From: an uncultured Clostridia bacterium
Lineage (GTDB): Bacteria > Bacillota > Clostridia > Oscillospirales > Acutalibacteraceae
Reading direction: 5' to 3'
Length of the DNA: 64,000 bases
Assembly (NCBI GenBank): GCA_944380885.1
Contig: CALWIZ010000007.1
Location: forward strand, 5,122-69,121
The notes under the pieces are model-generated. The model was not told the origin of the DNA and ran no database searches. It was given only the letters and a program-made list of their open reading frames with translations. Positions 976 through 33,803 of this stretch are shown piece after piece. Each line of letters begins with the position of its first letter. The first letter of the stretch is position 1. A program made the position numbers and the translations under genes.

Positions 976-1005
976 TTGTAATAATAAATGCCTCTTTGGT
1001 ATAAT
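976..1005 (+). promoter_or_regulatory. sigma-A-type promoter for the glycan locus
   Basis: -35 TTGTAA at 976-981, 18-nt spacer, extended -10 TGGTATAAT ending at 1005. It lies in a 350-nt AT-rich gap about 33 nt upstream of ATG 1039. Confidence 0.5.
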
Positions 1006-1038: not shown

Positions 1039-3963
1039 ATGACGAAAAATGCTTGGATTAATAAACGAATACTTCAAAAAATATTGTCTATATTTGTTAC
1101 CGGAGTTGTTTTTGCGACATTTTTCGCACAGACTCCAAAACTGAATGCCGAGGAAAATTCAGCAAATATTTTCGATTCGGACACGGTTTCGGCAGACAAT
1201 GTTCAAACAGGTGTGCCGGCTTATACTGATTATCTTGCGGGCTATTCAGATGCAGAATACTCGGACAATGAGGTTTTGATTACAGCTGATAACTATTCGG
1301 GCGGAAGCGATGATATAGAATTTATTACTAATTACTCCGGTTCGGAAGGTCGGTCGGTTTTAACGAGTGAAGACGGTTATGCCGAATGGACTTTTACCGT
1401 TGAGCAGGCAGGACTTTACAATATAGTTCTTAGATATTTTCCGTATGAGGGCAAGGGCGGCGACATTAACCGCAGCCTTACGATAGACGGAAAAGCTCCC
1501 TTTGAAGAAGCGCAGTATCTTACTTTTTACAGAGTATGGAAAGAGGTCTACGATGGAGAGCGTACCGACTCTGACGGCAATGATATACGTCCGAATGAGG
1601 AGGAAGTAAGGGAATGGACCGAAACTTTTTTAGAGGATTCAACCGGTTATGCCGGCGAGCCGCTTAAGTTTTATTTCACTGAGGGCATGCATGTTATAAG
1701 GCTTTCCTCGGATCGCGAGCCGATGCTTATTGAGAGCTTAAAGCTCTGCGGAACCACGGATGCCAGAACTTATTCAGAAGTAAAAGCCGAATATGAAAGC
1801 AAGGGCTATAAGCCGGCCGGCGGCAAAACTCAATATTTACAAGCTGAGGATATGTTTGAGAAATCATCACGGAGTATTTTTCCGCAGAACGACCGCAGTT
1901 CGGCGGCAACTCAGCCGCAGGATATCTTCTTAGTGAAGCTTAATTCAATGGGTGGAAGCAACTGGCAGAACTCCGGAGCATGGGTTTCATGGAAACTTAA
2001 GGTTGAAGAAAGCGGGCTTTATAAAATAGCTCCCAGATTCAAGCAGAATTTCTCATCCGGAAAGTATGTAAGCAGAAAGCTGACTATTGACGGAGAGGTG
2101 CCGTTTAAAGAAGCCGAAAGCTTAAAATTCGATTACAGCGGTGATTGGCAGGTTAAAGCGCTCGGCGACGAAGAAAACGGAGATTATCTTTTTTATTTTG
2201 AGGCAGGAAAGGAATACACGATATCCATGGAGGTTGTTCTTGGCAGTATGGGCGAAATACTGACAAGGGTAGACCGCGTTGTGGACGCGCTCAATGAGTG
2301 TTACCGCGAAATACTTATGATTACCGGCACCACTCCGGACAGCTACCGCGAATACAATTTTCAAGAGATTATTCCTGAAACTCTTGAGAAACTGGATTCA
2401 CAGGCGAAAGAGCTTGAAAGTATTTCGGAAATGATGGTTGAAGCCACGGGTGCTCGGGGCGAGAGTGTAACTACGCTCGATCAGCTTGTTTTTCTTATAA
2501 ATAAGATGACAGATGATCCGGATACTATCGGGGGACTTTTCACACAGTTCAAAGATAATATTTCGTCTCTCGGATCGTGGATACAGTCAATTTCGCAGCA
2601 GCCGCTGTCGCTTGATTATTTTGCGATAGTTCCGGCTGATAAGGAAATACCGAAAGCGGACGGAGGTTTTTTGGAGAATCTCGCTTTCGGATTCAAGTCG
2701 TTTATAGCATCGTTCGTGGTGGATTACAGTGCGCTCGGAAGTGAAAATGATGGTTCTTCCTCCGATTCGATAACGGTATGGCTTTCAACCGGACGCGATC
2801 AGTATAATGTTATTCGTCAGCTTATAGACGGTACATTTTCGCCGCAACATGGAACTAATGTGAATCTGCAATTGGTTGGAGAGGGTACTTTGCTGCCTTC
2901 TGTGCTTACAGGAAAAGGTCCCGATGTTTCGCTTTCCAACGCTGTTGACAGCACGAGTTCCATTGAAAATCCGATAGACTATGCCGTAAGACATGCGGTT
3001 GAGGATTTAAAGCAGTTTGATGATTACGAAGAAGTCATAAAACGTTTTCACGAAAGCGCAATAGTTCCATATCAGTTTGACGGCGGCACATACGCGCTGC
3101 CGGAGACGCAGACCTTCAGCATGATGTTTGTGCGGACTGATATTTTTGAAGAAATGAATCTTGAGATACCGAAAACCTGGGATGAGCTTGAGACTATAAT
3201 ACCGGAGCTTCAGAAAAAGAATATGTCGGTGGGCATACCGCACGATTTGAATGCCCTTTTAATGTTCATGTATCAGCGGAACACCCCGCTGTATCTCGAT
3301 GACGGTGCGAGAACAAACCTTGATTCAAAGGTTGCGATTCAGTGCTTCCAGAAACTTACTGAATATTTTACTCTTTATAATCTGCCGACAGATTATGATT
3401 TTTATAACCGTTTCCGTTCGGGTGAGATACCGATAGGAATTCAGGATTATACAGTTTATAACCAGCTTTCGCTTTTCGCACCGGAAATACGCGGGGATTG
3501 GATTATGACGTCTGTCCCGGGTACGGTAGATGAAAACGGCAATATAAACAATTCTATCACCGCAAAGGGAACGGCAGTAATGATGCTTAAAGGCGTAAGA
3601 AATAAAGAAGCGGCATGGGATTTCATGAAATGGTGGACTTCCGCCGAAACTCAGAGCGAGTTTACGAATCAGATGCAGAATATCTTAAGCTCCGGCATGC
3701 AGGCGACCGCCAATGTAGAAGCGCTTTCTATGCTTCCGTGGCCGGTAAGGGACTATAAGAATATAGAAGAACAGTGGTCAAATGTTGTGGGTACTCCAGA
3801 GGTTCCGGGCGGATACTATACAACTCGTGTGGTGAATTTTGCTTTTAATGATGTATACAATACCAAAAAAGATCCCGGAGATACATTACAGAGCTATATA
3901 GAGTCACTTAACAGCGAGCTTTCACGCAAGAGAAAAGAATTCGGAATTGAGCAAGGAGAATGA
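1039..3963 (+). CDS. giant extracellular sugar-binding protein: signal/anchor, two CBM6/35-like modules, family-1 ABC solute-binding domain
   Basis: Start moved to ATG 1039 (MTKNAWINKRILQKILSIFVTGVVFATFFAQ, hydrophobic signal) because the track start at 988 lies inside the promoter. There are two internally similar modules: YAEWTFTVEQAGLYNIVLRYFP...RSLTIDGKAPFEEA and AWVSWKLKVEESGLYKIAPRFK...RKLTIDGEVPFKEA. The C-terminal ~450 aa is SBP-like. Its stop overlaps the permease start (ATGA at 3960). Confidence 0.8.
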   Translation: MTKNAWINKRILQKILSIFVTGVVFATFFAQTPKLNAEENSANIFDSDTVSADNVQTGVPAYTDYLAGYSDAEYSDNEVLITADNYSGGSDDIEFITNYSGSEGRSVLTSEDGYAEWTFTVEQAGLYNIVLRYFPYEGKGGDINRSLTIDGKAPFEEAQYLTFYRVWKEVYDGERTDSDGNDIRPNEEEVREWTETFLEDSTGYAGEPLKFYFTEGMHVIRLSSDREPMLIESLKLCGTTDARTYSEVKAEYESKGYKPAGGKTQYLQAEDMFEKSSRSIFPQNDRSSAATQPQDIFLVKLNSMGGSNWQNSGAWVSWKLKVEESGLYKIAPRFKQNFSSGKYVSRKLTIDGEVPFKEAESLKFDYSGDWQVKALGDEENGDYLFYFEAGKEYTISMEVVLGSMGEILTRVDRVVDALNECYREILMITGTTPDSYREYNFQEIIPETLEKLDSQAKELESISEMMVEATGARGESVTTLDQLVFLINKMTDDPDTIGGLFTQFKDNISSLGSWIQSISQQPLSLDYFAIVPADKEIPKADGGFLENLAFGFKSFIASFVVDYSALGSENDGSSSDSITVWLSTGRDQYNVIRQLIDGTFSPQHGTNVNLQLVGEGTLLPSVLTGKGPDVSLSNAVDSTSSIENPIDYAVRHAVEDLKQFDDYEEVIKRFHESAIVPYQFDGGTYALPETQTFSMMFVRTDIFEEMNLEIPKTWDELETIIPELQKKNMSVGIPHDLNALLMFMYQRNTPLYLDDGARTNLDSKVAIQCFQKLTEYFTLYNLPTDYDFYNRFRSGEIPIGIQDYTVYNQLSLFAPEIRGDWIMTSVPGTVDENGNINNSITAKGTAVMMLKGVRNKEAAWDFMKWWTSAETQSEFTNQMQNILSSGMQATANVEALSMLPWPVRDYKNIEEQWSNVVGTPEVPGGYYTTRVVNFAFNDVYNTKKDPGDTLQSYIESLNSELSRKRKEFGIEQGE

Positions 3964-4892
3964 GTTCTATGTCTGTAACCCCATTAAAACGAAGCAATAA
4001 AAAGAGTCTTGGACATAAGATTAAAAGCAACGCAATATGCTACGCCTTGACATTACCGTATTTTGCTATATTTTTTATTTTTACGGTATGTCCGGTACTG
4101 ATTTCCATATTTCTTAGTTTCACAACATTTAATGTACTTGAAGCGCCGGTATTTATAGGCATTGAAAATTACGCAAGAATGTTTTTGGACGATGACGTAT
4201 TTATAATCGCTATAAAGAATACATTTATTCTTGCTGCCATTACCGGTCCTGTAAGCTATCTGCTGTCTTTGGCTGTGGCATGGCTTATAAACGATCTTAA
4301 CCGTTTTATGAGGGCGTTTATTACAGTTATCTTTTTTGCGCCTTCGCTCTCGGGAAACGCGCTGCTGATTTGGACGGTTCTTTTCAGCAGTGATGCCTAT
4401 GGCTATGCAAACGGTTTTCTGATGAATCTCGGAATTATCAATCAGCCGATTCGCTGGCTGCAGGATCCGAAGTATATGATGACACTTGTTATTGTAGTTG
4501 TGCTGTGGTCATCACTCGGTACAAGTTTCCTTTCGTTTATTGCCGGACTTCAGGGTATAAACCGTTCATATTACGAGGCGGGAGCGATTGACGGCATACG
4601 CAACCGCTGGCAGGAGCTTTGGTACATAACCTTGCCGGCAATGCGTCCGCAGCTCATGTTCGGCGCGGTAATGAGTATTTCCAGCGCGTTTTCAATAGGA
4701 GATGTCGTAACGCGTCTTGTCGGTTTTCCGAGCACGAATTACGCGGTTCATACAATTATCAATCATCTGCAGGATTACGGCGGAATCAGATATGAAATGG
4801 GTTATGCGTCAGCCATTGCCACGGTGCTGTTTTTGGCTATGATAATAACCAACAGAATAGTAAGAAATCTGCTTTCCAAGGTTGGCGAATAA
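3960..4892 (+). CDS. carbohydrate ABC transporter permease (CUT1, MalF/UgpA-like)
   Basis: 310 aa, six hydrophobic segments, EAA-type loop YYEAGAIDGIRNRWQELWYITLPAMRP. Translationally coupled to the upstream SBP gene. Confidence 0.9.
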   Translation: MSSMSVTPLKRSNKKSLGHKIKSNAICYALTLPYFAIFFIFTVCPVLISIFLSFTTFNVLEAPVFIGIENYARMFLDDDVFIIAIKNTFILAAITGPVSYLLSLAVAWLINDLNRFMRAFITVIFFAPSLSGNALLIWTVLFSSDAYGYANGFLMNLGIINQPIRWLQDPKYMMTLVIVVVLWSSLGTSFLSFIAGLQGINRSYYEAGAIDGIRNRWQELWYITLPAMRPQLMFGAVMSISSAFSIGDVVTRLVGFPSTNYAVHTIINHLQDYGGIRYEMGYASAIATVLFLAMIITNRIVRNLLSKVGE

Positions 4893-4911
4893 GCTCAAGG
4901 AGAATGACTAT

Positions 4912-5784
4912 ATGGCAACTGCAAAATTAGCTAAAAGAACCAAACAGCTGAATCGTTCGCTTGCAGGCAACCTAGGCGTTTATACGGTTCTCTTTATTCT
5001 GGCGGTTTTTATGGTGCTTCCGTTGGTGTATACTCTGGTATCATCAGTAAAGCCACTGGAAGAATACTGGGTTTTTCCGCCTAAATTTACAGTAGATCAT
5101 CCTACTATGAAAAATTATAAGGATTTATTTACCATGTTGACCGATTCTATGATTCCGTTTTCAAGGTATCTTTTCAATACCGCGTTTGTTTCAATCGTAG
5201 GTACTGCCGGTCATGTTATACTCTCTTCTATGTGTGCGTTTGGCCTTGCAAAGCACAGATTTCCCGGTTCAAAAATAATGTTTTCAATGGTGGTTCTGGC
5301 GCTTATGTTCAATACCACTGTTACCAGAATACCTAACTTTATTATAATGTCGAAGCTTAATATGCTTGATACATATGCCGCGCTGATTGTTCCGGCGTTC
5401 GGTTCCTCGCTCGGTCTTTACCTTATGAAGCAGTTTATGGATTCAATGGTAAACGACTCGGTGCTTGAATCCGCACGTATTGACGGTGCGGGTGAGTGGA
5501 GGGTGTACTGGAGAATGGTAATGCCGATGGTAAAGCCGGCATGGCTTACACTTATTATATTTTCGTTCCGTGACTTATGGAATATCGGCAGCACTACATA
5601 TATTCAGAGCGAACCGCTTAAAACCCTTAATTATGTTATGTCGCAGATTTCCGCGGGCGGCGTTGCGCGCGCAGGTGCAGCAGCCGCGGCAGGTGTAATT
5701 ATGATGATTGTACCGATAACGGTATTTATTATCACGCAGAGCAACGTTGTGGAAACAATGGGCTCCTCCGGCATGAAGGAGTAA
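4912..5784 (+). CDS. carbohydrate ABC transporter permease (CUT1, MalG/UgpE-like)
   Basis: Start chosen at ATG 4912, 9 nt after AAGGAG. EAA loop LESARIDGAGEWRVYWRMVMPMVKP. Multi-pass membrane protein. Confidence 0.9.
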   Translation: MATAKLAKRTKQLNRSLAGNLGVYTVLFILAVFMVLPLVYTLVSSVKPLEEYWVFPPKFTVDHPTMKNYKDLFTMLTDSMIPFSRYLFNTAFVSIVGTAGHVILSSMCAFGLAKHRFPGSKIMFSMVVLALMFNTTVTRIPNFIIMSKLNMLDTYAALIVPAFGSSLGLYLMKQFMDSMVNDSVLESARIDGAGEWRVYWRMVMPMVKPAWLTLIIFSFRDLWNIGSTTYIQSEPLKTLNYVMSQISAGGVARAGAAAAAGVIMMIVPITVFIITQSNVVETMGSSGMKE

Positions 5785-5788
5785 GGCA

Positions 5789-7912
5789 ATGAAGAATATA
5801 TTAGTAAAAGCAGCAGCGCTTCTGCTTGTGATGACAGCGCTTAGTTCCGGTTTGACGGCATTTGCCCAAACTGCGGCATATGTTCCCTATACTACCTATA
5901 CATACAGCTATGACGGTGAGGCACAGGAAAGTCCTAACGCTTTTGTGCCGGTTGAAAGATATGACGCTACGTCGCTTGGAACTGCGGAGCTTAAAAACCC
6001 AAGCGATTTGTTTGTTGATACTGAAAGCGGCAGGGTTTATATAGCCGATACCGGCAATAACCGTATTCTGATACTGGATAACAGCCTCAAACTCATAAAT
6101 ATTTTTTCGGAATTTGAAAACACCGAAAAGGGAGGCATGGATAAGTTTAACGGACCGCAGGGGGTTTTTGTTTCCTCACGTGGGCATGTATTTGTGGCGG
6201 ATACCGAAAACGGCCGTATTGTGGAATTTGATGCTCAGTTAAAAATGATTCGGATTTTAACCGAGCCGGTTTCGCCTTTTTGGCCTGAAGATATGTCTTT
6301 TAAGCCGATAGCACTGGTTGTGGACAGCGGAAACCGCATTTACGCCCTTTCCCAGAATATGAACGAGGGTGTTGTGAATTTAAGCGAAACCGGCGAATTT
6401 TTAGGATTTTACGGTGCTCAGAAGGTTCAACAAAGCATTTTCGACTGGTTTACTCAGCTTTTTCAGAATGAGGAAAAAAGCAAGCGTACCGTAAAAACCG
6501 TGCCGCGTGTTTATAACAGTATCGCAATAGACAGCCGTGATTTTGTATGGTTGACCGCGAACTCGATTGAAAAGCAGGATCAGATAGATTATATGACCTC
6601 AAAGTCTCTGACAAGCGCGCCGATAAAGCGTCTTAATCCCAAGGGAGACGATGTGCTTTTCCGAAATGCGAAATGGGCTCCGGGCGGCGACCTCGGTGAA
6701 GAGCCTTCAAGCATCGTAGATGTTACCATGAAGGACAACGGAATATATTCGATACTTGACAGTAACAAGAATAAAATTTTCACTTATGACAATAACGGCA
6801 ACCTGCTTTATGCCTTCGGCGCTTCGGGACAGCAGTTGGGAACTTTCAATCTCTGCACATCGATTTCCTACTTCGGTAATGATTTGCTGGTGCTTGATAA
6901 GGGCAACGGCACTATTACGCGTTTGGAACAGACTGATTACGGCGCTTTGATAGAAAGAGCGATAGTCGCAGATGCCAACCGTGAATTTGAAGAATCGCTT
7001 GAATGCTGGAATTCGGTTTTAAAGCAGAATCAGAATTTTGATATGGCATATACCGGAATTGCCGACGCTTTTCTGCGCAACGGCGATTACGAGGAAGCAA
7101 TGGAATATTTTAAAACCGCCCGTGATACTGAAAACTACTCAAGAGCTTTCAAAAGCTACCGTTCTGAATTTGTACGTGAAAATCTGATTTACATAGTTTT
7201 GGTTGTATGCGCGGTATTAGCGGTATTTTTCATTGTCAACAAGAAAATCAAAAAATTCAACAATAAGTTTTATTATTCTGACAGCAAACACACGCTGCTT
7301 GACGAATTCCTTTATTCGTTTTACAGTATTTATCACCCGATGAAGGGCGCATGGTGTATAAAGGCGGAAAGACGGGGCAGCGTCCGGGCGGCGCATATTA
7401 TAAATCTTCTTGTTATAGCGACCTTTATTTTCAAGGGCATAGGAACAGGATATATTTTCAATAATGTGTTGATTCAGAATTTTGATATTGTACGCACGGT
7501 CTTAAGTGTTGTTCTGCCAATACTTTTATGGTGTGTTTCAAGCTGGTCATTAACTACATTGTGCGGCGGCGAGGGAAATATCAAACAGATATATGTTGCC
7601 ACTTCTTATTCGCTTATGCCGCTTGTCGTGATAAATATACCAATGACCATTATAAGCAACTTTCTCGCAATAGAAGAGCAGGCGTTTCTGACCTTTATGA
7701 TTTTTCTTTCTTTTGCGTGGAGTCTGCTGCTGATTTTTGCATCTACAATGACAATACATGATTATACAATGGGCAAAAATCTGTTTACGGTAATTCTTTC
7801 GGTTGTGGGAATGCTTATAATACTTTTCCTTGCGATACTGCTGATTATTCTTTCGAATAAGATAGTTTCTTTCATACAGCAGATTTACGAGGAAGTAATC
7901 AACCGTTTATAA
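5789..7912 (+). CDS. secreted NHL-repeat beta-propeller + TPR + C-terminal Yip1-type multi-pass membrane domain protein
   Basis: Signal peptide MKNILVKAAALLLVMTALSSGLTAFAQ. NHL-type repeats GRVYIADTGNNRILILD and GHVFVADTENGRIVEFD. TPR-like segment WNSVLKQNQNFDMAYTGIADAFLRNGDYEEAMEYFKTA. About 5 TM helices follow from roughly residue 470 with Yip1-like spacing. Confidence 0.7.
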   Translation: MKNILVKAAALLLVMTALSSGLTAFAQTAAYVPYTTYTYSYDGEAQESPNAFVPVERYDATSLGTAELKNPSDLFVDTESGRVYIADTGNNRILILDNSLKLINIFSEFENTEKGGMDKFNGPQGVFVSSRGHVFVADTENGRIVEFDAQLKMIRILTEPVSPFWPEDMSFKPIALVVDSGNRIYALSQNMNEGVVNLSETGEFLGFYGAQKVQQSIFDWFTQLFQNEEKSKRTVKTVPRVYNSIAIDSRDFVWLTANSIEKQDQIDYMTSKSLTSAPIKRLNPKGDDVLFRNAKWAPGGDLGEEPSSIVDVTMKDNGIYSILDSNKNKIFTYDNNGNLLYAFGASGQQLGTFNLCTSISYFGNDLLVLDKGNGTITRLEQTDYGALIERAIVADANREFEESLECWNSVLKQNQNFDMAYTGIADAFLRNGDYEEAMEYFKTARDTENYSRAFKSYRSEFVRENLIYIVLVVCAVLAVFFIVNKKIKKFNNKFYYSDSKHTLLDEFLYSFYSIYHPMKGAWCIKAERRGSVRAAHIINLLVIATFIFKGIGTGYIFNNVLIQNFDIVRTVLSVVLPILLWCVSSWSLTTLCGGEGNIKQIYVATSYSLMPLVVINIPMTIISNFLAIEEQAFLTFMIFLSFAWSLLLIFASTMTIHDYTMGKNLFTVILSVVGMLIILFLAILLIILSNKIVSFIQQIYEEVINRL

Positions 7913-7923
7913 AGGAGATTGTT

Positions 7924-10539
7924 ATGAGAATACAAAAATTCAATTATGTATTGCGTTCGATCTGTCTGATGTTGATTGCAGGTATGTTAAGCTGTTTGGT
8001 CGCTGTTGGCACTTCCGGAAATGGAGAAGAAAGTGCCTCCGGCACATCTGCGCCGGATTTATCAAAGCACGGCATGTATGCCGGCAGCTCTGAAATGCTT
8101 GGCAATATGCAGCGTATAGCAACTTCAGGCGAATTAGAGCTTTATGCTAACAAAGAAACAGCTGAGATAGCGGTGCGCGATGTTTCCTCGGGCGAGGTGT
8201 GGTCCGCAATTCCGTATGACTACAATAAAGACGGTAAAGCCAGTGATGAAACCAAGGCGTCGCTCGCGTCCTTTATCAGTCTTACATATTACGATTCTGC
8301 CAGCAAGGAATACACGATGAACGGATATGAAGACTGTATTTCACGCGGACAGTTTGAATTTGAGACGATTGACAACGGTGTACGAATAAATATGCAAATC
8401 GGAACTCTCAAGGATCAGTTTAACGTCCCGTTTGCGGCAGAGGCCGAGCGTTTTGAGGAAAAGGTTTTAAGCAAACTTTCAGGTATAGCGAAACGCAGAG
8501 TGGAGGCGTTTTACACCAAATATTCCGCAGATGATGAAAAACTTGATTCGGAAGTGAAAGAAAGACTTTTGAATCTTTATCCGGGGCTTGCCGACTTTGA
8601 CTTTTATATTCTGCGCGACGACGCGACAGAACGCGATATTTCGGTTTTAAACGGATATATTTCCGAAACCGATTATACTGCAGAGGATTATAATGACGAC
8701 GCGAAAAAATCAGGTTCAGCCGAGCGCGGAGAAGCGGCGGCGTTATTTGAAATTCCGATTGAATTTTATTTGAGCGATAACAGCTTGGTTGTGAACATTA
8801 ACGCAAAAGAAATTTCTTACGACAAATCGTCTTTTGTGCTTAATAAAATCAGACTTATGGAATATTTCGGAGCCGGCAAATCGGTTAATTCCGGGTACAT
8901 TTTTGTACCGGACGGTTCAGGCAGTATTATAAACTTTAATACCGATGGGACAAAGAAAATTTTAAACACTGTAAACAGAGTTTACGGTCAGGACTATACG
9001 CTCTTGCAGAAGAATGAATATCAAAACCTTTCTGAACAGGCTTATCTTCCTGTTTTTGGGATAAAAGAGAATAACAGGGCATTTGTAGGCATTATTGAAG
9101 ACGGAGACGCGATGTCTCAGATCGTAAGCCAGTCAGGCAATATAATTTCAGGGTATGAAACCGTTTCAGCTGAGTTTAACTACGCGGTGGTACAGAGCTA
9201 CCTGTATGAGGACGGCAAAAAACAAAACGGTCAGTGGACATATATCAGCAAGGATTATTATGATGGAAATTACACAATCCGCTATAAATTCATGACCGGT
9301 GAGGATGCGGGATATGTCGGCATGGCAAAAGTATACCGTGATTATCTCATAAAAAACGGCAGTCTTAAAAAGCTTGAAAAGACAGATGATTCAGCCTTTT
9401 ATCTTGAGGTAATAGGTCTTATTACCCGCAAAGATTCGTTTTTCGGAATACCCTATAATAAAAAGATAGCAGTTACAAGCTTTTCAGACGCTGTCGAGCT
9501 TATGGAAGACCTGAAAGAAAACGGCGTAACAAATATCAAGCTGCGTTATAAGGGCTGGGCAAACGGAGGATTTAACAATACCGTGCCTTCTAAGGCGACA
9601 CCGGAAAAGAAGCTCGGAGGAAAAGACGGATTAGAAAGCCTTGCGGAATATATAAAGAAAAATAATTACTCGCTTTTCCTTGATGTCAACTTCCATATAG
9701 TGAGAAATAATAAATTATTTGACAGCTTTGTTCCGTTGTTTGATTCACCTCGTTCAAATGACGACAATATTGTGGCGATGACCCCGCCTGAAGAGCTGAA
9801 CAATATTTCCGCAGAACAGAATTTCTATTATGCGATAAAGCCTTCCAAGATGGGGGATTACTATTCGTCGTATTTTGATAGTTATAAAAAATACGGCATC
9901 GGAGCATCCTCGATTTCATATGCGGGCAATATGCTTTATTCCGATTTTGATAAGGATAACGGTGTGACGCGTCAAAAATCGCTTGAAATGCTTAAAGAAA
10001 ATTTGAATAACAACTCGGAAGCAATAGGAGATCTTCTTACAGACGGCGGCAATGCCTATATATTCCCGTATGCAGGCGATATACTTAATATTCCGCTATC
10101 TGACAGCGGAAATATCGTTGAGGACGAAAGCGTTCCGTTTATGCAGATAGTGCTTCACGGATACATACAGTATGCGGGAGCCGCTGTTAATCTTTCTGAT
10201 AATCTTCAGATATCGCTGCTGAAAAGCGCTGAATACGGAGCCAATCTTTATTTTACGCTCGGATATGAAAATACCGGCGCGCTTAAGGATACATCTCTTT
10301 CTTATATGTATTCGATAGATTACAGTACGTGGAAAAGCGATATCGTAAGCCTTTACAAAAAGTATAACAGCGTTTTTGCCACACTTCAGAATCAGGCTAT
10401 CAAAGGCCATGAAAAGCTGGCGGAAAATGTTTATAAAACTACTTATGAAGACGGCACTCAGGTGGCGGTAAACTACGGTGATAATGCGGTCAGAGTGAAC
10501 GGAAAGACCGTTGACGCTATGGATTTTGCCGTAGTCTGA
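7924..10539 (+). CDS. large exported protein of unknown function (DUF5696-like, recalled from memory)
   Basis: 871 aa, good RBS AAGGAG, N-terminal anchor LMLIAGMLSCLVAVG. I recognise no catalytic motif. Gene neighbourhoods of giant SBP, 2 permeases, a YIP1-family protein and this protein recur in Firmicutes annotations as DUF5696. I cannot verify this without a search. Confidence 0.5.
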   Translation: MRIQKFNYVLRSICLMLIAGMLSCLVAVGTSGNGEESASGTSAPDLSKHGMYAGSSEMLGNMQRIATSGELELYANKETAEIAVRDVSSGEVWSAIPYDYNKDGKASDETKASLASFISLTYYDSASKEYTMNGYEDCISRGQFEFETIDNGVRINMQIGTLKDQFNVPFAAEAERFEEKVLSKLSGIAKRRVEAFYTKYSADDEKLDSEVKERLLNLYPGLADFDFYILRDDATERDISVLNGYISETDYTAEDYNDDAKKSGSAERGEAAALFEIPIEFYLSDNSLVVNINAKEISYDKSSFVLNKIRLMEYFGAGKSVNSGYIFVPDGSGSIINFNTDGTKKILNTVNRVYGQDYTLLQKNEYQNLSEQAYLPVFGIKENNRAFVGIIEDGDAMSQIVSQSGNIISGYETVSAEFNYAVVQSYLYEDGKKQNGQWTYISKDYYDGNYTIRYKFMTGEDAGYVGMAKVYRDYLIKNGSLKKLEKTDDSAFYLEVIGLITRKDSFFGIPYNKKIAVTSFSDAVELMEDLKENGVTNIKLRYKGWANGGFNNTVPSKATPEKKLGGKDGLESLAEYIKKNNYSLFLDVNFHIVRNNKLFDSFVPLFDSPRSNDDNIVAMTPPEELNNISAEQNFYYAIKPSKMGDYYSSYFDSYKKYGIGASSISYAGNMLYSDFDKDNGVTRQKSLEMLKENLNNNSEAIGDLLTDGGNAYIFPYAGDILNIPLSDSGNIVEDESVPFMQIVLHGYIQYAGAAVNLSDNLQISLLKSAEYGANLYFTLGYENTGALKDTSLSYMYSIDYSTWKSDIVSLYKKYNSVFATLQNQAIKGHEKLAENVYKTTYEDGTQVAVNYGDNAVRVNGKTVDAMDFAVV

Positions 10540-10565: not shown

Positions 10566-11528
10566 ATGAAAAAGGCAAATCCGGTTTTCGTCAGGCGCCG
10601 TCTTTCGCTGTCATTCAGGCAGAAAAAGCAGCTTACATACTGGGCGTTTCTCATTCCGTTCTTATTGGGATTTTTCCTTATAATGCTCGGTATTTATATA
10701 AATTCGCTTCAATACAGCTTTAATGATGTTATAATTGACGGCGCGGACGGATTTCATCTGGAATGGCTGGGCTGGGAAAACTATAATTACGCGCTTAATA
10801 AAGATCCGAACTTTGTAACTAATATTCAGAGCTCAATAGTGACAATGCTCACCAATATACCTCTGGTAATACTTTATTCGCTGATGATAGCCGTAATACT
10901 GAACAGAGAAATGAAAGGACGTACATTTTTCAGGGCGGTTTTTTTCATACCGGTTATCTTGGCTACGGGTTTTATGACCAAGGCGGATTTAAACAATATG
11001 GTTTCCGACCAGATGTGGAACAATATGGGCGTGGCTACTTCTGCCGCGACAGACACCGAAATGGCTAACGGGCTTTTTAATTCGGTGGAGATGCAGAATT
11101 ACCTGACAAGCTTCGGTCTGAGTCCTGAAATTTCTCAGTATATTTTGACAGCCGCCCAGAATATATACGACATCGTAAATATTTCCGGCGTTCAGATGGT
11201 AATTTTTCTTGCGGGAATACAGTCAATTTCTCCTGCGATTTATGAGTCGGCGTCAATAGACGGCGCTACCGCGTGGGAGTCCTTCTGGCTTATTACCTTC
11301 CCGATGATAAGTCCGCTGATAATAGTAAATGTGGTGTATACGGTCATAGATTCGTTTACTTCATCAAACAATATTATAATGCAGCAAATCCAAGAGCAGA
11401 CATATCAATCCAACGGAATGGGACTGGCGTCCGCTATGGCGTGGTTTTATTTCCTTGTGGTGGCGGTATGCGTAATAATAATTACCCTTATTATACGCGG
11501 ATATGTTTACTATCAGCAGAGAGATTGA
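10566..11528 (+). CDS. carbohydrate ABC transporter permease (second system, MalF-like)
   Basis: 320 aa, multi-pass, EAA loop YESASIDGATAWESFWLITFPMISP, RBS AAAGGAG. Confidence 0.85.
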   Translation: MKKANPVFVRRRLSLSFRQKKQLTYWAFLIPFLLGFFLIMLGIYINSLQYSFNDVIIDGADGFHLEWLGWENYNYALNKDPNFVTNIQSSIVTMLTNIPLVILYSLMIAVILNREMKGRTFFRAVFFIPVILATGFMTKADLNNMVSDQMWNNMGVATSAATDTEMANGLFNSVEMQNYLTSFGLSPEISQYILTAAQNIYDIVNISGVQMVIFLAGIQSISPAIYESASIDGATAWESFWLITFPMISPLIIVNVVYTVIDSFTSSNNIIMQQIQEQTYQSNGMGLASAMAWFYFLVVAVCVIIITLIIRGYVYYQQRD

Positions 11529-11538
11529 GGTGGCAGAA

Positions 11539-12507
11539 ATGAAAGGTATTTTAAAGGGACAAAGAGAAAAAAAGCCATCACGTTTGGCGGAAGCTTTTTC
11601 TAAAAACCGTATAAGAAGAACGCTCGGTCAGATTTTTATATACGTACTGCTGATTGAAATTGCGTTTGTAATCCTGTTTCCTCTGCTTTCCAAGTTTTCG
11701 GCCTCACTTATGAGCAGCAGCGATATGTACGACCGCACGGTAATATTCATTCCGCGTAATCCCACGCTTGAAAATTACAAGGTTGTGTGGGAGGAAGCAT
11801 TCTTTCTTATAGCGACAAAAAATACACTTCTGATTTCGCTTTTAGCGGCGGTATTGCAGACGCTAATATGCGCTATGACAGGTTACGGTCTGGCTAAGGT
11901 TAAATCAAAACTGGGCAATTTGGTGCTTTTATTTGTTGTGCTGACAATTTTAATTCCGCCGCAAATAATACTTGTGCCTATGTTTTTAAAGTTCCGTTTC
12001 TTCGATATTGCGGGAATTATAAAGGCTATAAGCGGCGGTACGATAACTCTTATGAATTCTGTATGGCCCATTGTTATCCTATCGGTTACGGGTCTCGCTT
12101 TTAAAAACGGCTTATATATTTTCATAATGCGTCAGTTCTATAAAGGAATACCCGAGGAAATAGAGGAAGCGGCAAGCATTGACGGATACGGGATCTTCCC
12201 GACCTATTTCAAGGTTGTGCTTCCGATGTCCGTACCAATGATGATAACTATATTCATGTTCTCGTTTTCGTGGCAGTGGACGGATACGTTTTACTCCGGT
12301 ATGTTCTTTTCAGAGCTGAAAGTACTTTCAAATACAATATTTACTATGACCTCGGCGTTCCATTCGGGCAACTTTGCGGGCAATTACAGCACGTCGTCGC
12401 TTTTGCAGACCGGTGTGCTTATGGCAATAATTCCACTGGTTATAATTTATATTTTTGCACAGCGCAAGATAATAGGCGGTATAGAGCGTAGCGGTCTTGT
12501 CGGTTAA
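11539..12507 (+). CDS. carbohydrate ABC transporter permease (second system, MalG-like)
   Basis: Start set at ATG 11539 after GAGGTGG. EAA loop EEAASIDGYGIFPTYFKVVLPMSVP. Confidence 0.85.
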   Translation: MKGILKGQREKKPSRLAEAFSKNRIRRTLGQIFIYVLLIEIAFVILFPLLSKFSASLMSSSDMYDRTVIFIPRNPTLENYKVVWEEAFFLIATKNTLLISLLAAVLQTLICAMTGYGLAKVKSKLGNLVLLFVVLTILIPPQIILVPMFLKFRFFDIAGIIKAISGGTITLMNSVWPIVILSVTGLAFKNGLYIFIMRQFYKGIPEEIEEAASIDGYGIFPTYFKVVLPMSVPMMITIFMFSFSWQWTDTFYSGMFFSELKVLSNTIFTMTSAFHSGNFAGNYSTSSLLQTGVLMAIIPLVIIYIFAQRKIIGGIERSGLVG

Positions 12508-12546: not shown

Positions 12547-15500
12547 GTGTATAATAAATCGCAAATATTTCGTATTCTTGACAAGCAGTCAAATTTCAAT
12601 CAAACACTTGAACCTTACCTTTTTAAAACGGTAGATACTCTTGATGTAAAGGGCTATGAAACTTTTGACAGACTGGACAGCCCGCCCGCGGATGAGCTTT
12701 ACCGCGATATGCAGGAAGGATATGTTTGGGGAAAAGAGAAGATTTACTGCTGGTTTAAGGCTGAATATAAGGTGCCGGAAGAGCTTGCCGGCAAAAAGCT
12801 TTACCTTTATCCTGAGTTTGACGGATATGAGGGGCTGCTTTTTGTAAACGGAGTGCCGCATACCAATTACGCTTCTAAAATTTGCGTAAACACTCACGGG
12901 AATCATTATTGCAAGGCATTCACGTTAGGGGCCGATGCGGGAGAAGTTTTTAAGCTTGATCTTGAGGCTTACGCAGGTCATGATTTTGAGGGGAATCATC
13001 CTTTTGCCCCGGCGGCGAAACACAGCTACAATTTAAAGCTGGGAAAGTTTCGCGTATGTGTTAAAGACGAGCTTATATACAAATTTTATTACGATTATAA
13101 GGTTTTGCAGGATTTGCATGACGCACTGCCTGAAAACAACTTTAAGCGTGCGGAAATCTTAAAAGTATTTTTGAAGCTGCACGAGGTACTTTACTGCGAT
13201 ATAAAAAATTGCAGGGAGGAAGACTGGCGTGAAGGTGTGCGCTTAGGAATTGAAATAATGGCTCCTGTGCTGAAAAAGCATAATTCGGAGTCAGTTCCGC
13301 GCGCCGGAATATTAGGTCATTCTCATATGGATACCGCATGGACATGGGAAATAGATGAGACCATTAAAAAATGTGCCAGAACATATGCGAACCAACTGAA
13401 TTTAATGGATCAGTACCCCGATTATCTTTTTATTCAAAGCTCTTCTCTTCACCTTAAATTTATGGAGGAGCATTATCCAAAGCTGTTCGAAAGAATCAAG
13501 AAAAGGATTTTAGAGGGAAGATATGAGCCAAACGGAGGCGTGTGGGTCGAATGTGACTGCAATATCACAGGCGGAGAATTTATGGTTCGTCAGTTCCTCT
13601 GGGGACAGAACTATACCAGAAAGCATTTCGGATATACCTCAAATTCCTTCTATCTGCCTGATACTTTCGGTTACAGCGCGGCGCTTCCGCAGATTATGAA
13701 GGGCTGCCATGTTGATTATTTCCTTACAACTAAACTTGGCTGGAACGAAAACAACAAATTTCCGTATGAAACCTATTATTGGCAGGGTATAGACGGTTCA
13801 AAGGTACTTGTCCATCATAATGTAACTCATCTTCCCCCTTCTCCGTCAAGAATTATCGGAGCGCTTGATGCTTTACAGCAGAAATCGGTAAACAACGAAA
13901 GACTGGTTACCTTCGGTTACGGTGACGGTGGCGGCGGTCCGGAAGACGCTATGCTTGAAACGGCTGAAAGAATTAAGGATTTAGAAGGCTGCCCTAAGGT
14001 TTACTACACCACCGTAGGGGACTTTATGAAAAATTTAGAGGCCAATCTTTTTGAACCCTCTACTTACCGCGGAGAACTTTATCTTGAGAATCACCGCGGA
14101 ACACTCACCAATCAGCACACCATTAAAAGAAACAACCGAAAGGCGGAAATTGCTATCCATAACGCAGAACTCTTAACCGTTATGGATGCGGTGGATAAAG
14201 GCAAAACAGCTTCTTCCGAGAATATAAATCCGCTTGTTGAGACATTGCTTGTAAATCAGTTCCACGATATCCTGCCCGGAACCTGCATTCCTGAGGCGCA
14301 TGACCGCAGCATAAGAGAAACCACTAAGGTAATCACCGACGCTGAAGCGATTTGCGTAAACCTTATGCGCGGTAATAATGCCGACAGTACCGTAACGCTT
14401 TTCAACCCTCTTTCCTTTGAGAGGAAAGACGTCATTGAAATTCCGGGAGAGCATTATATTGAAGCCGCGGGAACGGCACAGCAGATAGTTACCAAAAACG
14501 ACGGAAAAACCTTTTTGCACGTTTGCGGAATAAAGCTGGGCGCTTTTGAGGGCAAAGCGTTTTCATTTACGGAAAATGCGGAAAATGGGACTTCTCCGTT
14601 TAAATTCGTCGGTAAAACGCTTGAAACTCCTTTTGCGGTTGTCACGTTTGATAAAAAAGGCTATATGTCCTCATTCATCGACAAGCGCACCGGAAGAGAA
14701 CTTAGGGGAGAGTCATACAGCCTTAATACATTTATCTTCGGTGAAGAGGTTTCGGCGGCGTGGGACTGCTGGAATATAGATATAGATTACGAGAAAAAAA
14801 TGTCCGACTGTGCCGAGCTTCTTTCATTCGAACCTGTAAGCGACGGAGCAGTAGAGTTCCGCATCCGCGCAGAATACAGAATTTCGGACAAAACAACTCT
14901 TTCACAGGACATAGTTTTCTATTCCGCGAGCCCGAGGGTTGATTTTGAAACGACTGTCGACTGGAACGATAAGCACAGACTGCTTAAGACGGTATTTGAC
15001 ACATCGGTCCGCGCGGAATATTCGGTGCATGAAATTCAGTTCGGAAATGTCAAGCGTCCGACTAACCGCAATACCGAGGTACAGCAGGCGCGTTTTGAGG
15101 TGTCAAATCATAAGTATACCGATATTTCCGAGCCGTCATACGGTATTTCAATACTTAACGACTGTAAGTACGGGCTTTCGGTGCTTGATTCCAATATATC
15201 GCTTACTCTGCATAAGGGCGGAAGCAAGCCGGATCCGCGCGGCGATAAGGGCGTACACAAGTTTACATATTCCTTCTATCCTCATACCGGTACTTTTTGT
15301 GCTGAAAACACTGTGCATGAGGCGTATTATCTCAATAATCCGGTGCTTAGCTTCGCCGGCAGCCGCGAGATGTCCGGAATTGTTCGGATTGAAAAGGAAA
15401 ATGTCATTGCGGAAACGATAAAACCATGCGAGGAAAATCAGAAGGCTTACATAGCAAGAGTATATGAGTCGGAGGGCAGTTTTGTCAAAACAGGTATCAC

Positions 15501-15738: not shown

Positions 15739-15768
15739 AATTATATGCAAAATGGGAGGAAATTTAAA

Positions 15769-21606: not shown

Positions 21607-21684
21607 TCGGCTTATAGAAAATTCAGTTCACCTGTTTTTTTCAGACAGCGGAAGCGCTTTTGAAATATTTTGTGGAGGTTGAAT

Positions 21685-33508: not shown

Positions 33509-33783
33509 AAATGATAAAGGCATTGACGAAGACGGTCCGGAATGACTGCTTTAAGAGAGCCGGTGGTTGGTGTGAACCGGCAGTACGTATTCCAGAGTGA
33601 CCCATCGCTTCCGAGCCGGAGCACTGAATTCGCAAGACAGTAGGTTCTCCCGTGATTGCTGCGTAAAGGCATAGGGATTGTTGGATCCCAAGAGGTGGCG
33701 GCTTTCATGCCGCAATTTGAGTGGTACCGCGGATGTATTTTCACACCCGTCTCAAGGATTTCTTGAGACGGGTGTTTTTATTT
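33509..33783 (+). promoter_or_regulatory. T-box riboswitch leader 1 (inferred specifier AUC, Ile)
   Basis: GA/K-turn TTGACGAAGA paired with CTTCCGAGCC. AG bulge AAGAGAG. Distal loop GGTTGGTGTGAA. T-box sequence AATTTGAGTGGTACCGCGG at 33713-33731. Terminator CACCCGTCTCAAG-5 nt-CTTGAGACGGGTG plus TTTTT at 33744-33779. Candidate specifier ATC at 33604-33606, followed by G and then the CTTC strand of the basal helix. Confidence 0.8.
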
Positions 33784-33803
33784 CACAAAGGAGGCTTTTA
33801 AAA

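What the first reader, a model, noticed from the sequence alone, without database searches (positions are those of the whole stretch)
1039..10539. Conserved-looking but uncharacterised five-gene cassette: giant CBM-fused SBP, two permeases, NHL-TPR-Yip1 protein, DUF5696-like protein
The first importer is unusual. Its binding protein is roughly twice the normal size because two CBM6/35-like modules and a helical spacer precede the SBP fold. It is immediately followed by two large exported or membrane proteins with no assigned function. From memory, this gene string recurs in Firmicutes with DUF-type annotations only. It may be an undescribed polysaccharide capture and processing machine coupled to an ABC importer. 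That would make it a Gram-positive functional analogue of SusC/D-type surface complexes.
Basis: partly seen in the sequence, partly recalled or inferred. Interest (0 to 1): 0.7.

Follow-up and report, generated by a model that had tools for sequence, protein, structure and literature searches.

The report
Conserved Gram-positive glycan capture-and-import cassette
The five genes are real. They are the middle of a rigidly conserved, never-studied eight-gene set in Firmicutes that pairs two sugar importers with a surface enzyme-like protein and a membrane scaffold, probably to seize and import mannose-rich glycans.

Summary
Positions 1039-10539 encode a 974-aa binding protein, two permeases, an NHL-TPR-Yip1 membrane protein and an 871-aa DUF5696 protein. 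The binding protein has two homologous CBM35-like beta-sandwiches, a four-helix bundle and an oligosaccharide-SBP fold.

In 80 related loci from Bacilli and Clostridia, the five genes precede DUF5696 in 75 of 75 informative loci. A second permease pair (window 10566-12507) follows it in 76 of 77. An ordinary lipoprotein SBP (window 17086-18471) accompanies the set in 72 loci. The core is therefore eight genes forming two ATPase-less CUT1-type importers.

DUF5696 is not an orphan fold. Its AF2 model matches GH129 and GH129-like enzymes (Foldseek E 1e-31 to 1e-25), then GH101. A NagBb-type GH129 sequence itself passes Pfam's DUF5696 threshold. However, the GH129 catalytic positions are not invariant, so activity is unproven.

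DUF5696 clades track the flanking enzymes: GH76; GH38; GH26/GH113; GH38/GH20-like/GH18; GH27-like. This resembles the way PULs diversify. In this window cytoplasmic GH38, GH30 and GH130 follow, which suggests a mannose-rich glycan. I found no paper on this family. A physical complex remains an inference.

The parts
976..1005 (+). Promoter-like site (TTGTAA, 18 nt, TG-extended TATAAT) ahead of the first gene
   Evidence: Consensus scan, 10 of 12 matches with a TG extension. It is a pattern match only.
1039..3963 (+). Giant secreted binding protein, 974 aa. Type-I signal peptide (no lipobox Cys) and a linker. CBM35-like module a, aa 70-242 (nt 1246-1764). CBM35-like module b, aa 258-403 (nt 1810-2247). 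Four-helix bundle and connector, aa 404-560 (nt 2248-2718). Oligosaccharide-SBP fold, aa 577-967 (nt 2767-3939).
   Evidence: Pfam. AF2 model pLDDT 85.5. Modules a and b are homologous, E 2e-23. Module b matches the CITase CBM35, E 3.9e-5, and aa 438-507 look coiled-coil-like. The SBP part has TM 0.72-0.82 to oligosaccharide SBPs 5ci5, 5yse, 9xf5 and 5f7v. All modules are present in 75 of 75 orthologues.
3960..4892 (+). Permease 1 of importer 1 (MalF/UgpA-like, 6 TM, EAA loop present)
   Evidence: BPD_transp_1, NCBIfam UgpA-like, TM scan. Median 58% identity to distant orthologues.
4882..5784 (+). Permease 2 of importer 1 (MalG/UgpE-like, EAA loop present)
   Evidence: BPD_transp_1, NCBIfam UgpE-like. 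Median 53% identity to distant orthologues.
5789..7912 (+). NHL-TPR-Yip1 membrane protein, 707 aa. Signal peptide aa 4-22. Extracellular NHL beta-propeller about aa 60-370 (nt 5966-6898). Juxtamembrane TPR aa 385-460 (nt 6941-7168). TM helix aa 465-483. Five-TM Yip1 domain aa 514-687 (nt 7328-7849).
   Evidence: Pfam. Profile versus PDB: PknD-derived Pizza propellers E 9.5e-65, PknD sensor 3.8e-30. Hydropathy topology. Fused in 33 loci, split into NHL-TPR-TM plus Yip1 in 42.
7924..10539 (+). DUF5696 protein, 871 aa. N-terminal membrane anchor or signal, N-terminal beta-sandwich carrying a helical insertion, a partly broken (beta/alpha)8 barrel (about aa 490-820) and a C-terminal beta-sandwich. 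Remote GH129/GH101 homologue.
   Evidence: PF18952 at 632 bits. AF2 pLDDT 88.3, pTM 0.83. Foldseek: 5opq E 2.6e-31, 5wzr 9.5e-26, GH101 about 1e-15. Profile versus PDB sequences E 2.4e-8. hhalign to a NagBb-like sequence 96.5%. Residue conservation.
10566..11528 (+). Permease A of importer 2 (6 TM, EAA loop, long extracellular insertion about aa 139-199)
   Evidence: BPD_transp_1. The orthologue lies directly after DUF5696 in 76 of 79 loci. Retained in the reduced variant L083.
11503..12507 (+). Permease B of importer 2. The true start is probably ATG 11539, which follows a GAGGTG ribosome-binding site.
   Evidence: BPD_transp_1, orthology, sequence context read.
12547..15630 (+). GH38 alpha-mannosidase, no signal peptide (cytoplasmic)
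   Evidence: Four GH38 Pfam domains, N-terminus. GH38 is an operon-mate in 12 related loci.
15745..17073 (+). GH30 family enzyme, no signal peptide
   Evidence: Pfam, N-terminus.
17086..18471 (+). Ordinary lipoprotein SBP ('SBP2', 461 aa, LSAAAC lipobox). It is the eighth conserved gene and the likely partner of permeases A and B.
   Evidence: Pfam. A homologue occurs in 72 loci: just upstream of the giant SBP in most of them (chiefly Bacilli), downstream of permease B in 13 cases (chiefly Clostridia). It is the most divergent member, 25% identity. L083 keeps only this SBP type with permeases A and B.
18493..19650 (+). Exported protein with a C-terminal TM anchor, fold unknown. Conserved in the window's clade.
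19681..25851 (+). Two exported proteins of unknown catalytic type that share a domain: 641 aa with a dockerin, and 1393 aa with FIVAR.
25939..26910 (+). GH130 beta-mannoside phosphorylase-type enzyme, cytoplasmic. Last gene of the glycan locus.
   Evidence: Pfam, N-terminus.

Best explanation
The region is the core of a widespread Firmicute glycan-acquisition module. It is a Gram-positive polysaccharide-utilisation locus built around a fixed eight-gene platform.

Shown:
- Two CUT1-type ABC importers are encoded without an ATPase. Importer 1 is the giant secreted binding protein plus permeases 1 and 2. Importer 2 is permeases A and B plus an ordinary lipoprotein SBP.
- Between them sit an NHL-propeller/TPR/Yip1 membrane protein and a membrane-tethered GH129-like ectoprotein (DUF5696).
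- Order and content are essentially invariant across Bacilli and Clostridia.
- Flanking glycoside hydrolases differ from clade to clade.

Inferred mechanism:
1. The giant binding protein has no lipid anchor. It uses its tandem CBM35-like modules to hold polymeric glycan, or the cell wall, at the surface.
2. Its helical bundle acts as a spacer or docking element.
3. DUF5696 cuts or trims the captured chain by a retaining alpha-glycosidase-type reaction. The candidate nucleophile is D674 and the candidate acid/base is D734.
4. The two SBP domains feed two size or structure classes of oligosaccharide to their own permease pairs. A shared MsmX/MsmK-type ATPase encoded elsewhere supplies the energy, since all four permeases keep the EAA loop.
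5. NHL-TPR-Yip1 is a membrane scaffold tied to DUF5696 and permeases A and B.

In this window the imported sugars would be finished in the cytoplasm by GH38, GH30 and GH130. That points to a mannose-rich glycan such as yeast-type mannan or high-mannose N-glycan.
For: - Synteny: all five upstream genes in 75 of 75 loci; two further permeases in 76 of 77; SBP2 in 72 loci.
- The order persists at 26-30% DUF5696 identity in L082 and L084, where no other CAZyme is nearby.
- Reduced variant L083 keeps NHL-TPR-Yip1, DUF5696 and permeases A and B with ordinary SBPs.
- The genes are packed at -26 to +39 nt with no convincing + strand terminator.
- The giant SBP, NHL protein and DUF5696 all have export signals or anchors. 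GH38, GH30 and GH130 have none.
- The giant SBP architecture and its oligosaccharide-SBP fold.
- DUF5696 relates to GH129/GH101. 74 of 81 sequences carry a carboxylate at 674 and 78 of 81 carry Asp at 734.
- DUF5696 clades track the flanking enzymes. Among 160 operon-mates: GH38 12, GH26 12, GH76 6, GH113 5, GH125 3, GH2 beta-mannosidase-type 3.
- Some genomes carry two or three cassettes.
- The family is large: 7,424 clusters at 50% identity.
Against: - No tool here tested protein-protein contact, so 'one machine' is inference from synteny alone.
- The NagBb catalytic positions are not invariant in DUF5696. The best structural equivalent of nucleophile D435 is position 666, which is Tyr in the window protein and Asp in only 58 of 81.
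- Position 674 is Asn in the GH76-linked clade. Acid/base E478 aligns with the invariant G709/N710. Alignment confidence is low in that stretch.
- Importer 1 is unexpectedly conserved (44-58% identity) across clades with different flanking enzymes. That fits a common ligand or a structural constraint better than simple substrate-specific capture.
- The substrate is inferred only from neighbouring enzyme families.
Confidence: 0.55

Rival explanations
1. This is an ordinary enzyme-plus-transporter locus with no special machine. DUF5696 is simply a divergent GH129-type exo-alpha-glycosidase at the cell surface. The two importers work independently, as in other Gram-positive PULs. NHL-TPR-Yip1 is a loosely associated accessory protein.
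For: - DUF5696 shares fold and Pfam-level homology with GH129.
- CUT1 importers next to glycoside hydrolases are the norm in Firmicutes.
- Nothing here demonstrates physical coupling.
- CAZyme surveys already report 'GH129' genes in Paenibacillus, which may be these proteins.
Against: - Strict order is kept across two bacterial classes and down to 26% identity. That is much tighter than the variable layout of typical Gram-positive PULs, whose flanks do vary here.
- The giant SBP lacks a lipid anchor, so it needs some partner or the wall to stay on the cell.
- Fusion and split forms of NHL-TPR and Yip1 show these parts act together.
Confidence: 0.25
2. DUF5696 is a catalytically inactive glycosidase-fold ectodomain. 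It would serve as a glycan-binding or ancillary subunit of importer 2, comparable to surface glycan-binding proteins of Bacteroidota or to the GH13-like heavy chains (4F2hc/rBAT) of eukaryotic amino-acid transporters (comparison from general knowledge).
For: - None of the three GH129/GH101-type catalytic positions is invariant.
- One clade (L009-L013, L060) has no carboxylate at either 666 or 674.
- The protein is always encoded between Yip1 and permease A, often with overlapping stop and start codons.
- It is present whatever the flanking enzyme type.
Against: - 75 of 81 sequences keep a carboxylate at 666 or 674.
- D330, D734, R683, N710, H745 and W545 are invariant or nearly so across clades with different presumed substrates. 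That pattern is typical of a catalytic centre.
- In L082 and L084, DUF5696 is the only glycosidase-like gene near the transporter.
Confidence: 0.15
3. The cassette recycles or remodels the cell's own envelope or exopolysaccharide rather than foraging for external glycans.
For: - Some CBM35 modules bind bacterial wall uronic acids. The CsxA CBM35 (2vzp) appears among the weak hits.
- L082 and L084 sit among housekeeping genes with no other CAZymes.
Against: - Operon-mates are mostly enzymes for plant or fungal mannans, galactan, chitin or N-glycans.
- Sugar-responsive regulators (GntR/LacI-type in 50 loci, AraC, two-component systems) accompany the cassette.
- Multiple diversified copies per genome fit nutrient foraging.
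Confidence: 0.05

Closest known systems
Gram-positive polysaccharide utilisation loci with CUT1 ABC importers (for example the Roseburia intestinalis beta-mannan locus and the Streptococcus pneumoniae N-glycan locus; named from general knowledge)
   Same: SBP-dependent two-permease importers without their own ATPase. Co-located extracellular and cytoplasmic glycoside hydrolases. Sugar-responsive regulators in many related loci.
   Different: A fixed eight-gene core with two importers. A secreted SBP fused to two CBM35-like modules and a helical bundle. An NHL-TPR-Yip1 membrane protein. A DUF5696 ectoprotein. I know of none of these in described loci, and the literature searches found none.
Bacteroidota Sus-like systems (SusC/D with surface glycan-binding proteins and a surface hydrolase)
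   Same: The logic is shared: a conserved capture-and-import core that recurs in several copies per genome and diversifies together with variable flanking enzymes. Surface binding modules sit beside a surface glycosidase-fold protein.
   Different: There is no homology. There is no TonB-dependent transporter and no SusD fold, and the cell has a single membrane. Transport is by ABC importers. Physical assembly is unproven here.
GH129 (NagBb alpha-N-acetylgalactosaminidase 5wzn; GH129-like DagB 3,6-anhydro-D-galactosidase 5opq) and GH101
   Same: The same three-domain fold (Foldseek E 2.6e-31 and 9.5e-26, TM 0.67-0.72 on the target). Sequence-profile homology. A NagBb-type sequence scores 57.4 bits on the DUF5696 Pfam model.
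   Different: 12-14% identity. An N-terminal membrane anchor and a roughly 100-aa helical insertion. No hit of the window protein to the GH129 or GH101 Pfam models. The NagBb nucleophile and acid/base positions are not invariant. It is always embedded in a transporter operon.
YknWXYZ of Bacillus subtilis (a Yip1-family membrane protein as accessory subunit of an ABC transporter; from general knowledge, not tested)
   Same: A bacterial Yip1-domain membrane protein encoded with, and presumably acting on, an ABC transporter.
   Different: YknXYZ is an exporter-type system with its own ATPase. Here Yip1 is fused or adjacent to an extracellular NHL propeller and TPR, and it accompanies SBP-dependent importers.
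Extracellular NHL beta-propeller sensor domain of M. tuberculosis PknD
   Same: Closest solved relative of the NHL ectodomain (profile E 3.8e-30; derived Pizza designs 9.5e-65). Both are extracellular and membrane-tethered.
   Different: There is no kinase or other cytoplasmic output domain. The anchor is a Yip1 five-helix bundle.

Membership tests
Pfam PF18952 (DUF5696) | Score above the gathering threshold (25.6 bits) over most of the model | tested here: met
   632.5 bits, model positions 2-612 of 612.
CAZy GH129 | Three-domain fold: N-terminal beta-sandwich, (beta/alpha)8 barrel, C-terminal beta-sandwich | tested here: met
   Foldseek top hits are 5opq (E 2.6e-31), 8rzk and 5wzr (E 9.5e-26), with target TM 0.67-0.72.
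CAZy GH129 | Significant direct sequence similarity to characterised members or to the family model | tested here: inconclusive
   Single-sequence phmmer gives only E 0.0037. There is no hit to PF11308 or PF12905 at E<=1. The profile reaches E 2.4e-8 and hhalign gives 96.5%. A NagBb-like sequence passes the DUF5696 model. CAZy's own assignment could not be consulted.
CAZy GH129 | Catalytic nucleophile Asp (NagBb D435, DagB D486) at the end of beta-4 | tested here: inconclusive
   Position 666, the nearest structural equivalent, is Tyr in the window protein and Asp in 58 of 81. Position 674 is Asp in the window protein; across the 81 it is D 70, E 4, N 7. The alignment is of low confidence here. 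No coordinates were available for superposition.
CAZy GH129 | Acid/base Glu (NagBb E478) | tested here: not met
   hhalign places E478/E479 opposite G709/N710, and N710 is Asn in 80 of 81. DagB also lacks this residue (PMC5698469).
CUT1-type ABC carbohydrate importer | Cluster-B/D-type SBP plus two BPD_transp_1 permeases carrying EAA loops | tested here: met
   SBP_bac_1/8 and BPD_transp_1 hits for both sets. EAA-type motifs were read in all four permeases. The SBP fold has TM 0.72-0.82 to oligosaccharide SBPs.
CUT1-type ABC carbohydrate importer | Cognate ATPase (MsmX/MsmK/MalK type) | tested here: not met
   None lies in the cassette, the window or the loci. The only ABC_tran hits are exporter or FtsX types. 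A shared ATPase encoded elsewhere is usual for this class in Firmicutes (general knowledge).
CBM35 | Score above the family threshold or a clear match to solved CBM35 modules | tested here: inconclusive
   Pfam CBM_35 scores 18.7 bits against a cut-off of 28. The family profile matches CITase CBM35 at E 3.9e-5 and more weakly 2vzp and 2w47. Some orthologues carry precomputed PF16990 hits. Module a is homologous to module b. Ligand-binding residues were not examined.
NHL repeat beta-propeller / TPR / Yip1 | Pfam thresholds for each domain | tested here: met
   NHL 60.8 bits (cut-off 20), TPR_1 30.6 (27.8), Yip1 35.8 (28.6). The propeller is confirmed against PDB. Five TM helices lie in the Yip1 part.
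Sus-like PUL (Bacteroidota) | SusC TonB-dependent transporter plus SusD lipoprotein pair | tested here: not met
   No such domains occur in any gene of the locus. The resemblance is functional only.
Gram-positive PUL (operational definition: degradative enzyme, carbohydrate transporter and regulator in one locus; from general knowledge) | All three gene classes co-located | tested here: inconclusive
   Enzymes and transporters are present in the window. No regulator was seen next to the window's operon. Regulators are present in most related loci: GntR/LacI-type in 50, plus AraC and two-component systems.

The most novel reading that the evidence does not exclude
NHL-TPR-Yip1, DUF5696 and permeases A and B, with the unanchored CBM-SBP docked on them, form a single membrane-embedded 'utilisome' of Gram-positive bacteria. 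In it a GH129-derived ectodomain is structurally coupled to an ABC importer and hands over, or gates, substrate. This would be a previously unrecognised class of accessory subunits for SBP-dependent importers, present in thousands of Firmicute lineages.
Probability: 0.25. Interest if true: 0.85.

Novelty: new variant of a known kind. Interest (0 to 1): 0.62.

Why it matters
How single-membrane bacteria hold on to polysaccharides and pass the fragments to ABC importers is much less understood than the Sus paradigm of Bacteroidota.

This cassette is abundant. DUF5696 alone forms about 7,400 clusters at 50% identity. It occurs in soil Paenibacillus and in gut and rumen Lachnospiraceae and Ruminococcaceae.

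It is rigidly organised and occurs in genetically tractable hosts. Three of its component types have no studied role in sugar uptake: a CBM-fused SBP, an NHL-TPR-Yip1 protein and a GH129-like ectoprotein.

If the parts work together, it would give a concrete, testable model for Gram-positive glycan capture. It would probably also yield a new glycosidase specificity or family, and a marker for predicting mannan or N-glycan use in microbiomes.

Tried and rejected
- The 48-sequence DUF5696 alignment was too diverse to seed the genome scan. A 10-sequence alignment worked.
- I tried to map GH129 catalytic residues. A search with a NagBb fragment returned only frameshifted fragments. I rebuilt a NagBb-like C-terminal 465 aa from three frames of contig L081 and aligned it by hmmsearch and hhalign. 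The catalytic stretch aligns with low confidence. Model coordinates are not exposed, so no structural superposition was possible.
- The C-terminal-half profile against PDB did not extend to the catalytic strands.
- I looked for gene fusions between DUF5696 and other cassette parts, and for appended CBMs in long DUF5696 forms (up to 1,460 aa). There were no fusions and no recognisable extra domains.
- NCBIfam has no model for DUF5696.
- Cluster look-ups gave no source names, so the organism is known only as an uncultured Clostridia lineage. The nearest loci are labelled Clostridia or Ruminococcaceae MAGs.
- Literature searches for DUF5696, PF18952, Yip1/NHL/SBP combinations and CBM35-SBP found nothing on the cassette.
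- A Paenibacillus O199 secretome paper reports 'GH129, GH130 and CBM35' only on cellulose. These may be the same genes as annotated by dbCAN, but I could not verify this.
- PDB searches of the dockerin protein and the 1,393-aa protein gave nothing beyond the dockerin.
- Rejected: chance adjacency (synteny in 75 of 75 loci).
- Rejected: NHL-TPR-Yip1 as a signalling receptor (no cytoplasmic output domain).
- Rejected: an exporter role (SBP-dependent BPD_transp_1 permeases are importers).


Full report
**1. What is in the window**

Positions 1039-10539 hold five tightly packed + strand genes. Spacings are -4, -11, +4 and +11 nt.

Pfam assigns them as follows:
- A 974-aa protein with SBP_bac_1/8 only in its C-terminal 40%, plus a sub-threshold CBM_35 hit.
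- Two BPD_transp_1 permeases.
- A 707-aa NHL/TPR/Yip1 protein.
- An 871-aa protein matching DUF5696 at 632 bits.

**2. The giant binding protein**

An AlphaFold2 model built on 42 homologues has pLDDT 85.5. It shows, in order:
- an N-terminal hydrophobic helix and a disordered linker;
- beta-sandwiches at aa 79-237 and aa 265-400;
- a four-helix bundle at aa 404-519;
- an SBP fold at aa 577-967.

The two sandwiches are homologous to each other (hhalign 99.6%, E 2e-23). A family profile matches the second sandwich to the CBM35 of cycloisomaltooligosaccharide glucanotransferase (E 3.9e-5). The same profile matches aa 438-507 to coiled-coil proteins.

The SBP part superposes on oligosaccharide-binding proteins at target TM 0.72-0.82. 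These include binders of sophoro-oligosaccharides, cycloisomalto-oligosaccharides, cycloalternan and maltodextrin.

The signal peptide ends in an AxA-type site and there is no lipobox cysteine, in the window protein and in its orthologues. The protein is therefore secreted without the lipid anchor usual for Gram-positive SBPs.

**3. The unit is larger than five genes**

I examined the best 80 loci. They come from Paenibacillus, Cohnella, Bacillus, Lederbergia, Lachnospiraceae (Roseburia, Butyrivibrio, Herbinix, Anaerotaenia) and Ruminococcaceae.

Results of the synteny analysis:
- In all 75 loci with enough upstream DNA, the giant SBP, permease 1, permease 2, NHL-TPR and Yip1 precede DUF5696 in that order.
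- NHL-TPR-Yip1 is one polypeptide in 33 loci. In 42 it is split into an NHL-TPR protein with a C-terminal TM helix plus a five-TM Yip1 protein.
- In 76 of 77 loci a second permease pair follows DUF5696 directly. These are orthologues of window 10566-11528 and 11503-12507.
- An ordinary SBP of about 460 aa, orthologous to window 17086-18471, is present in 72 loci. It lies just upstream of the giant SBP in most of them (chiefly Bacilli) and after the second permease pair in 13 cases (chiefly Clostridia).

The conserved core is thus eight genes encoding two complete SBP-dependent importers. All four permeases keep the EAA loop (sequences). No ATPase is encoded nearby.

Loci of very distant DUF5696 proteins (26-30% identity) keep the same seven-gene order with no other CAZyme nearby (L082, L084).

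One reduced variant, L083, has only NHL-TPR-Yip1, DUF5696 and permeases A and B, together with ordinary SBPs and a LamG-type protein. So NHL-TPR-Yip1, DUF5696 and permeases A and B are the irreducible set. The giant SBP with permeases 1 and 2 is a second, usually interleaved subsystem.

**4. What DUF5696 is**

The AF2 model has pLDDT 88.3 and pTM 0.83. It shows an N-terminal anchor, a beta-sandwich domain with a helical insertion, a partly broken (beta/alpha)8 barrel and a C-terminal beta-sandwich.

Foldseek against the PDB ranks:
- the GH129-like 3,6-anhydro-D-galactosidase DagB first (5opq, E 2.6e-31);
- then GH101 (about 1e-15);
- then GH36 and GH31 (about 1e-11).

The relationship is also visible in sequence. 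The family profile hits DagB and NagBb chains at E 2.4e-8. hhalign to a NagBb-like sequence that I reconstructed from a frameshifted contig gives 96.5% probability over 432 columns. That NagBb-like sequence scores 57.4 bits on Pfam's DUF5696 model, above the model's cut-off. This is higher than its scores on the GH101 (38.7) or GH129 (31.7) models.

The converse does not hold. The window protein and 47 relatives show no hit to those two models at E<=1. DUF5696 is therefore a deep sister branch of GH129/GH101, not an orphan and not an outright member.

**5. Is DUF5696 an enzyme?**

NagBb uses D435 (in YLDVF) as nucleophile and E478 as acid/base. DagB keeps only the first of these (PMC5698469; the sequence context comes from my reconstruction).

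Across 81 DUF5696 sequences:
- Position 666, at the end of beta-4, is Asp in 58 and Tyr in the window protein.
- Position 674 is Asp in 70 (including the window), Glu in 4 and Asn in 7.
- 75 of 81 have a carboxylate at one or both positions.
- The GH76-linked clade has neither.
- E478 aligns with G709/N710, and N710 is Asn in 80 of 81.

The residues conserved across the family are D330 (in a VPDGSG loop of the N-domain), R683 and E770, each in 81 of 81. Also conserved are D103, N710 and H745 (80), D357 (79), and D734 and D259 (78).

This pattern suggests a conserved functional centre that differs from NagBb's. I rate catalytic activity of the window protein at about even odds or slightly better. 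D674 and D734 are the working candidates.

**6. The NHL-TPR-Yip1 protein**

Hydropathy gives this topology: a signal peptide, an ectodomain at aa 23-464, one TM helix at aa 465-483, a short basic cytoplasmic loop, and five Yip1 helices.

The propeller's closest solved relatives are the PknD sensor domain and the Pizza designs derived from it. There is no cytoplasmic output domain, so a scaffold or binding role is more plausible than signalling.

**7. Substrate clues**

I scanned 160 same-strand, contiguous operon-mates from about 75 loci. The commonest families are:

| Family | Count |
|---|---|
| GH38 | 12 |
| GH26 | 12 |
| GH76 | 6 |
| GH113 | 5 |
| GH20-like | 5 |
| GH53 | 4 |
| GH43 | 4 |
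| DUF5060 | 4 |
| GH125 | 3 |
| GH2 beta-mannosidase-type | 3 |
| GH18 | 2 |

These enzymes follow the DUF5696 tree. There is a GH76 clade, the window's GH38 clade, a GH26/GH113/DUF5060 clade, a GH38/GH20-like/GH18 clade and a GH27-like-CBM6 clade. Several genomes hold two or three cassettes. This is how PULs diversify.

In the window, GH38, GH30 and GH130 lack signal peptides, so they would act on imported oligosaccharides. That suggests a mannose-rich glycan.

**8. An unexplained pattern**

I compared the window with 67 distant loci. Median identities are:
- permeases 1 and 2: 58% and 53%;
- giant SBP: 41-44% in both CBM-like modules and the SBP domain, 33% in the helical bundle;
- permeases A and B, Yip1, NHL and DUF5696: 33-39%, with TPR at 43%;
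- SBP2: 25%.

SBP2 thus looks like the specificity element. Importer 1 is conserved irrespective of the flanking enzymes. Either it carries a common ligand, or it is constrained by interactions with partners.

**9. Literature and scale**

No paper in the library mentions DUF5696 or PF18952, or describes this gene set. Paenibacillus CAZyme surveys do list 'GH129' genes. One secretome study found 'GH129, GH130 and CBM35' only on cellulose. These may be the same proteins as annotated by dbCAN, but that is unverified. The DUF5696 family comprises 7,424 clusters at 50% identity at E<=1e-3, and 4,223 at E<=1e-30.

**10. Verdict**

A conserved, undescribed glycan capture and import platform is well supported by synteny, domain architecture and context. 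That it is a single physical machine, and that DUF5696 is catalytically active, remain inferences.

I rate it a new variant of a known kind: a Gram-positive PUL with an ABC importer carrying a distinctive, fixed set of accessory components. Interest is 0.62.

Noticed in passing
window 19681-21606 and 21670-25851: Two exported proteins in the same operon, 641 aa with a C-terminal dockerin and 1,393 aa with a FIVAR domain. They share an N-terminal domain, since both hit the same ORF of L001. Neither matches any Pfam catalytic family or any PDB sequence. They may be unrecognised extracellular glycan-active enzymes, and the dockerin implies a cellulosome-type organism.
   Followed up: partly
window 18493-19650: A 385-aa exported protein with an unknown N-terminal domain of about 230 aa, a long Ser/Thr/Asn-rich linker and a C-terminal TM anchor. 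It is conserved next to the cassette only in the window's clade (five loci).
   Followed up: partly
window 11503-11539: The mechanical ORF for permease B starts at ATG 11503, which has no ribosome-binding site and overlaps permease A by 26 nt. ATG 11539 follows a GAGGTG motif and is the more likely start.
   Followed up: no
window 1567-1617 (giant SBP aa 177-193): CBM-like module a carries an insertion absent from module b. Its motif DxxGNDIRPxQxExPxW is nearly invariant in all orthologues. It is a candidate ligand or partner-binding loop.
   Followed up: no
window 33678-36074 and 36453-38744: Two adjacent paralogous proteins combine a cupin domain (one also has an HTH domain) with a full AMP-binding (acyl/aryl-CoA ligase-type) enzyme. 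This is an unusual fusion and is unrelated to the glycan locus.
   Followed up: no
L082 953-1912 and L084 634-1593: In the two most distant cassettes examined, the only nearby sugar-related gene is a divergently transcribed ROK-family protein (regulator or sugar kinase). No glycoside hydrolases flank the cassette.
   Followed up: no
L083 1667-2968: In the reduced cassette variant a 433-aa Laminin_G_3 (concanavalin-like) protein occupies the place of the giant SBP and permeases 1 and 2. It may substitute for the CBM modules.
   Followed up: no
L081 94-1700: The only database relatives of NagBb (GH129) found by the protein search were frameshifted fragments on low-coverage contigs. Their precomputed annotation already listed both DUF5696 and GH101 Pfam hits.
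   Followed up: yes
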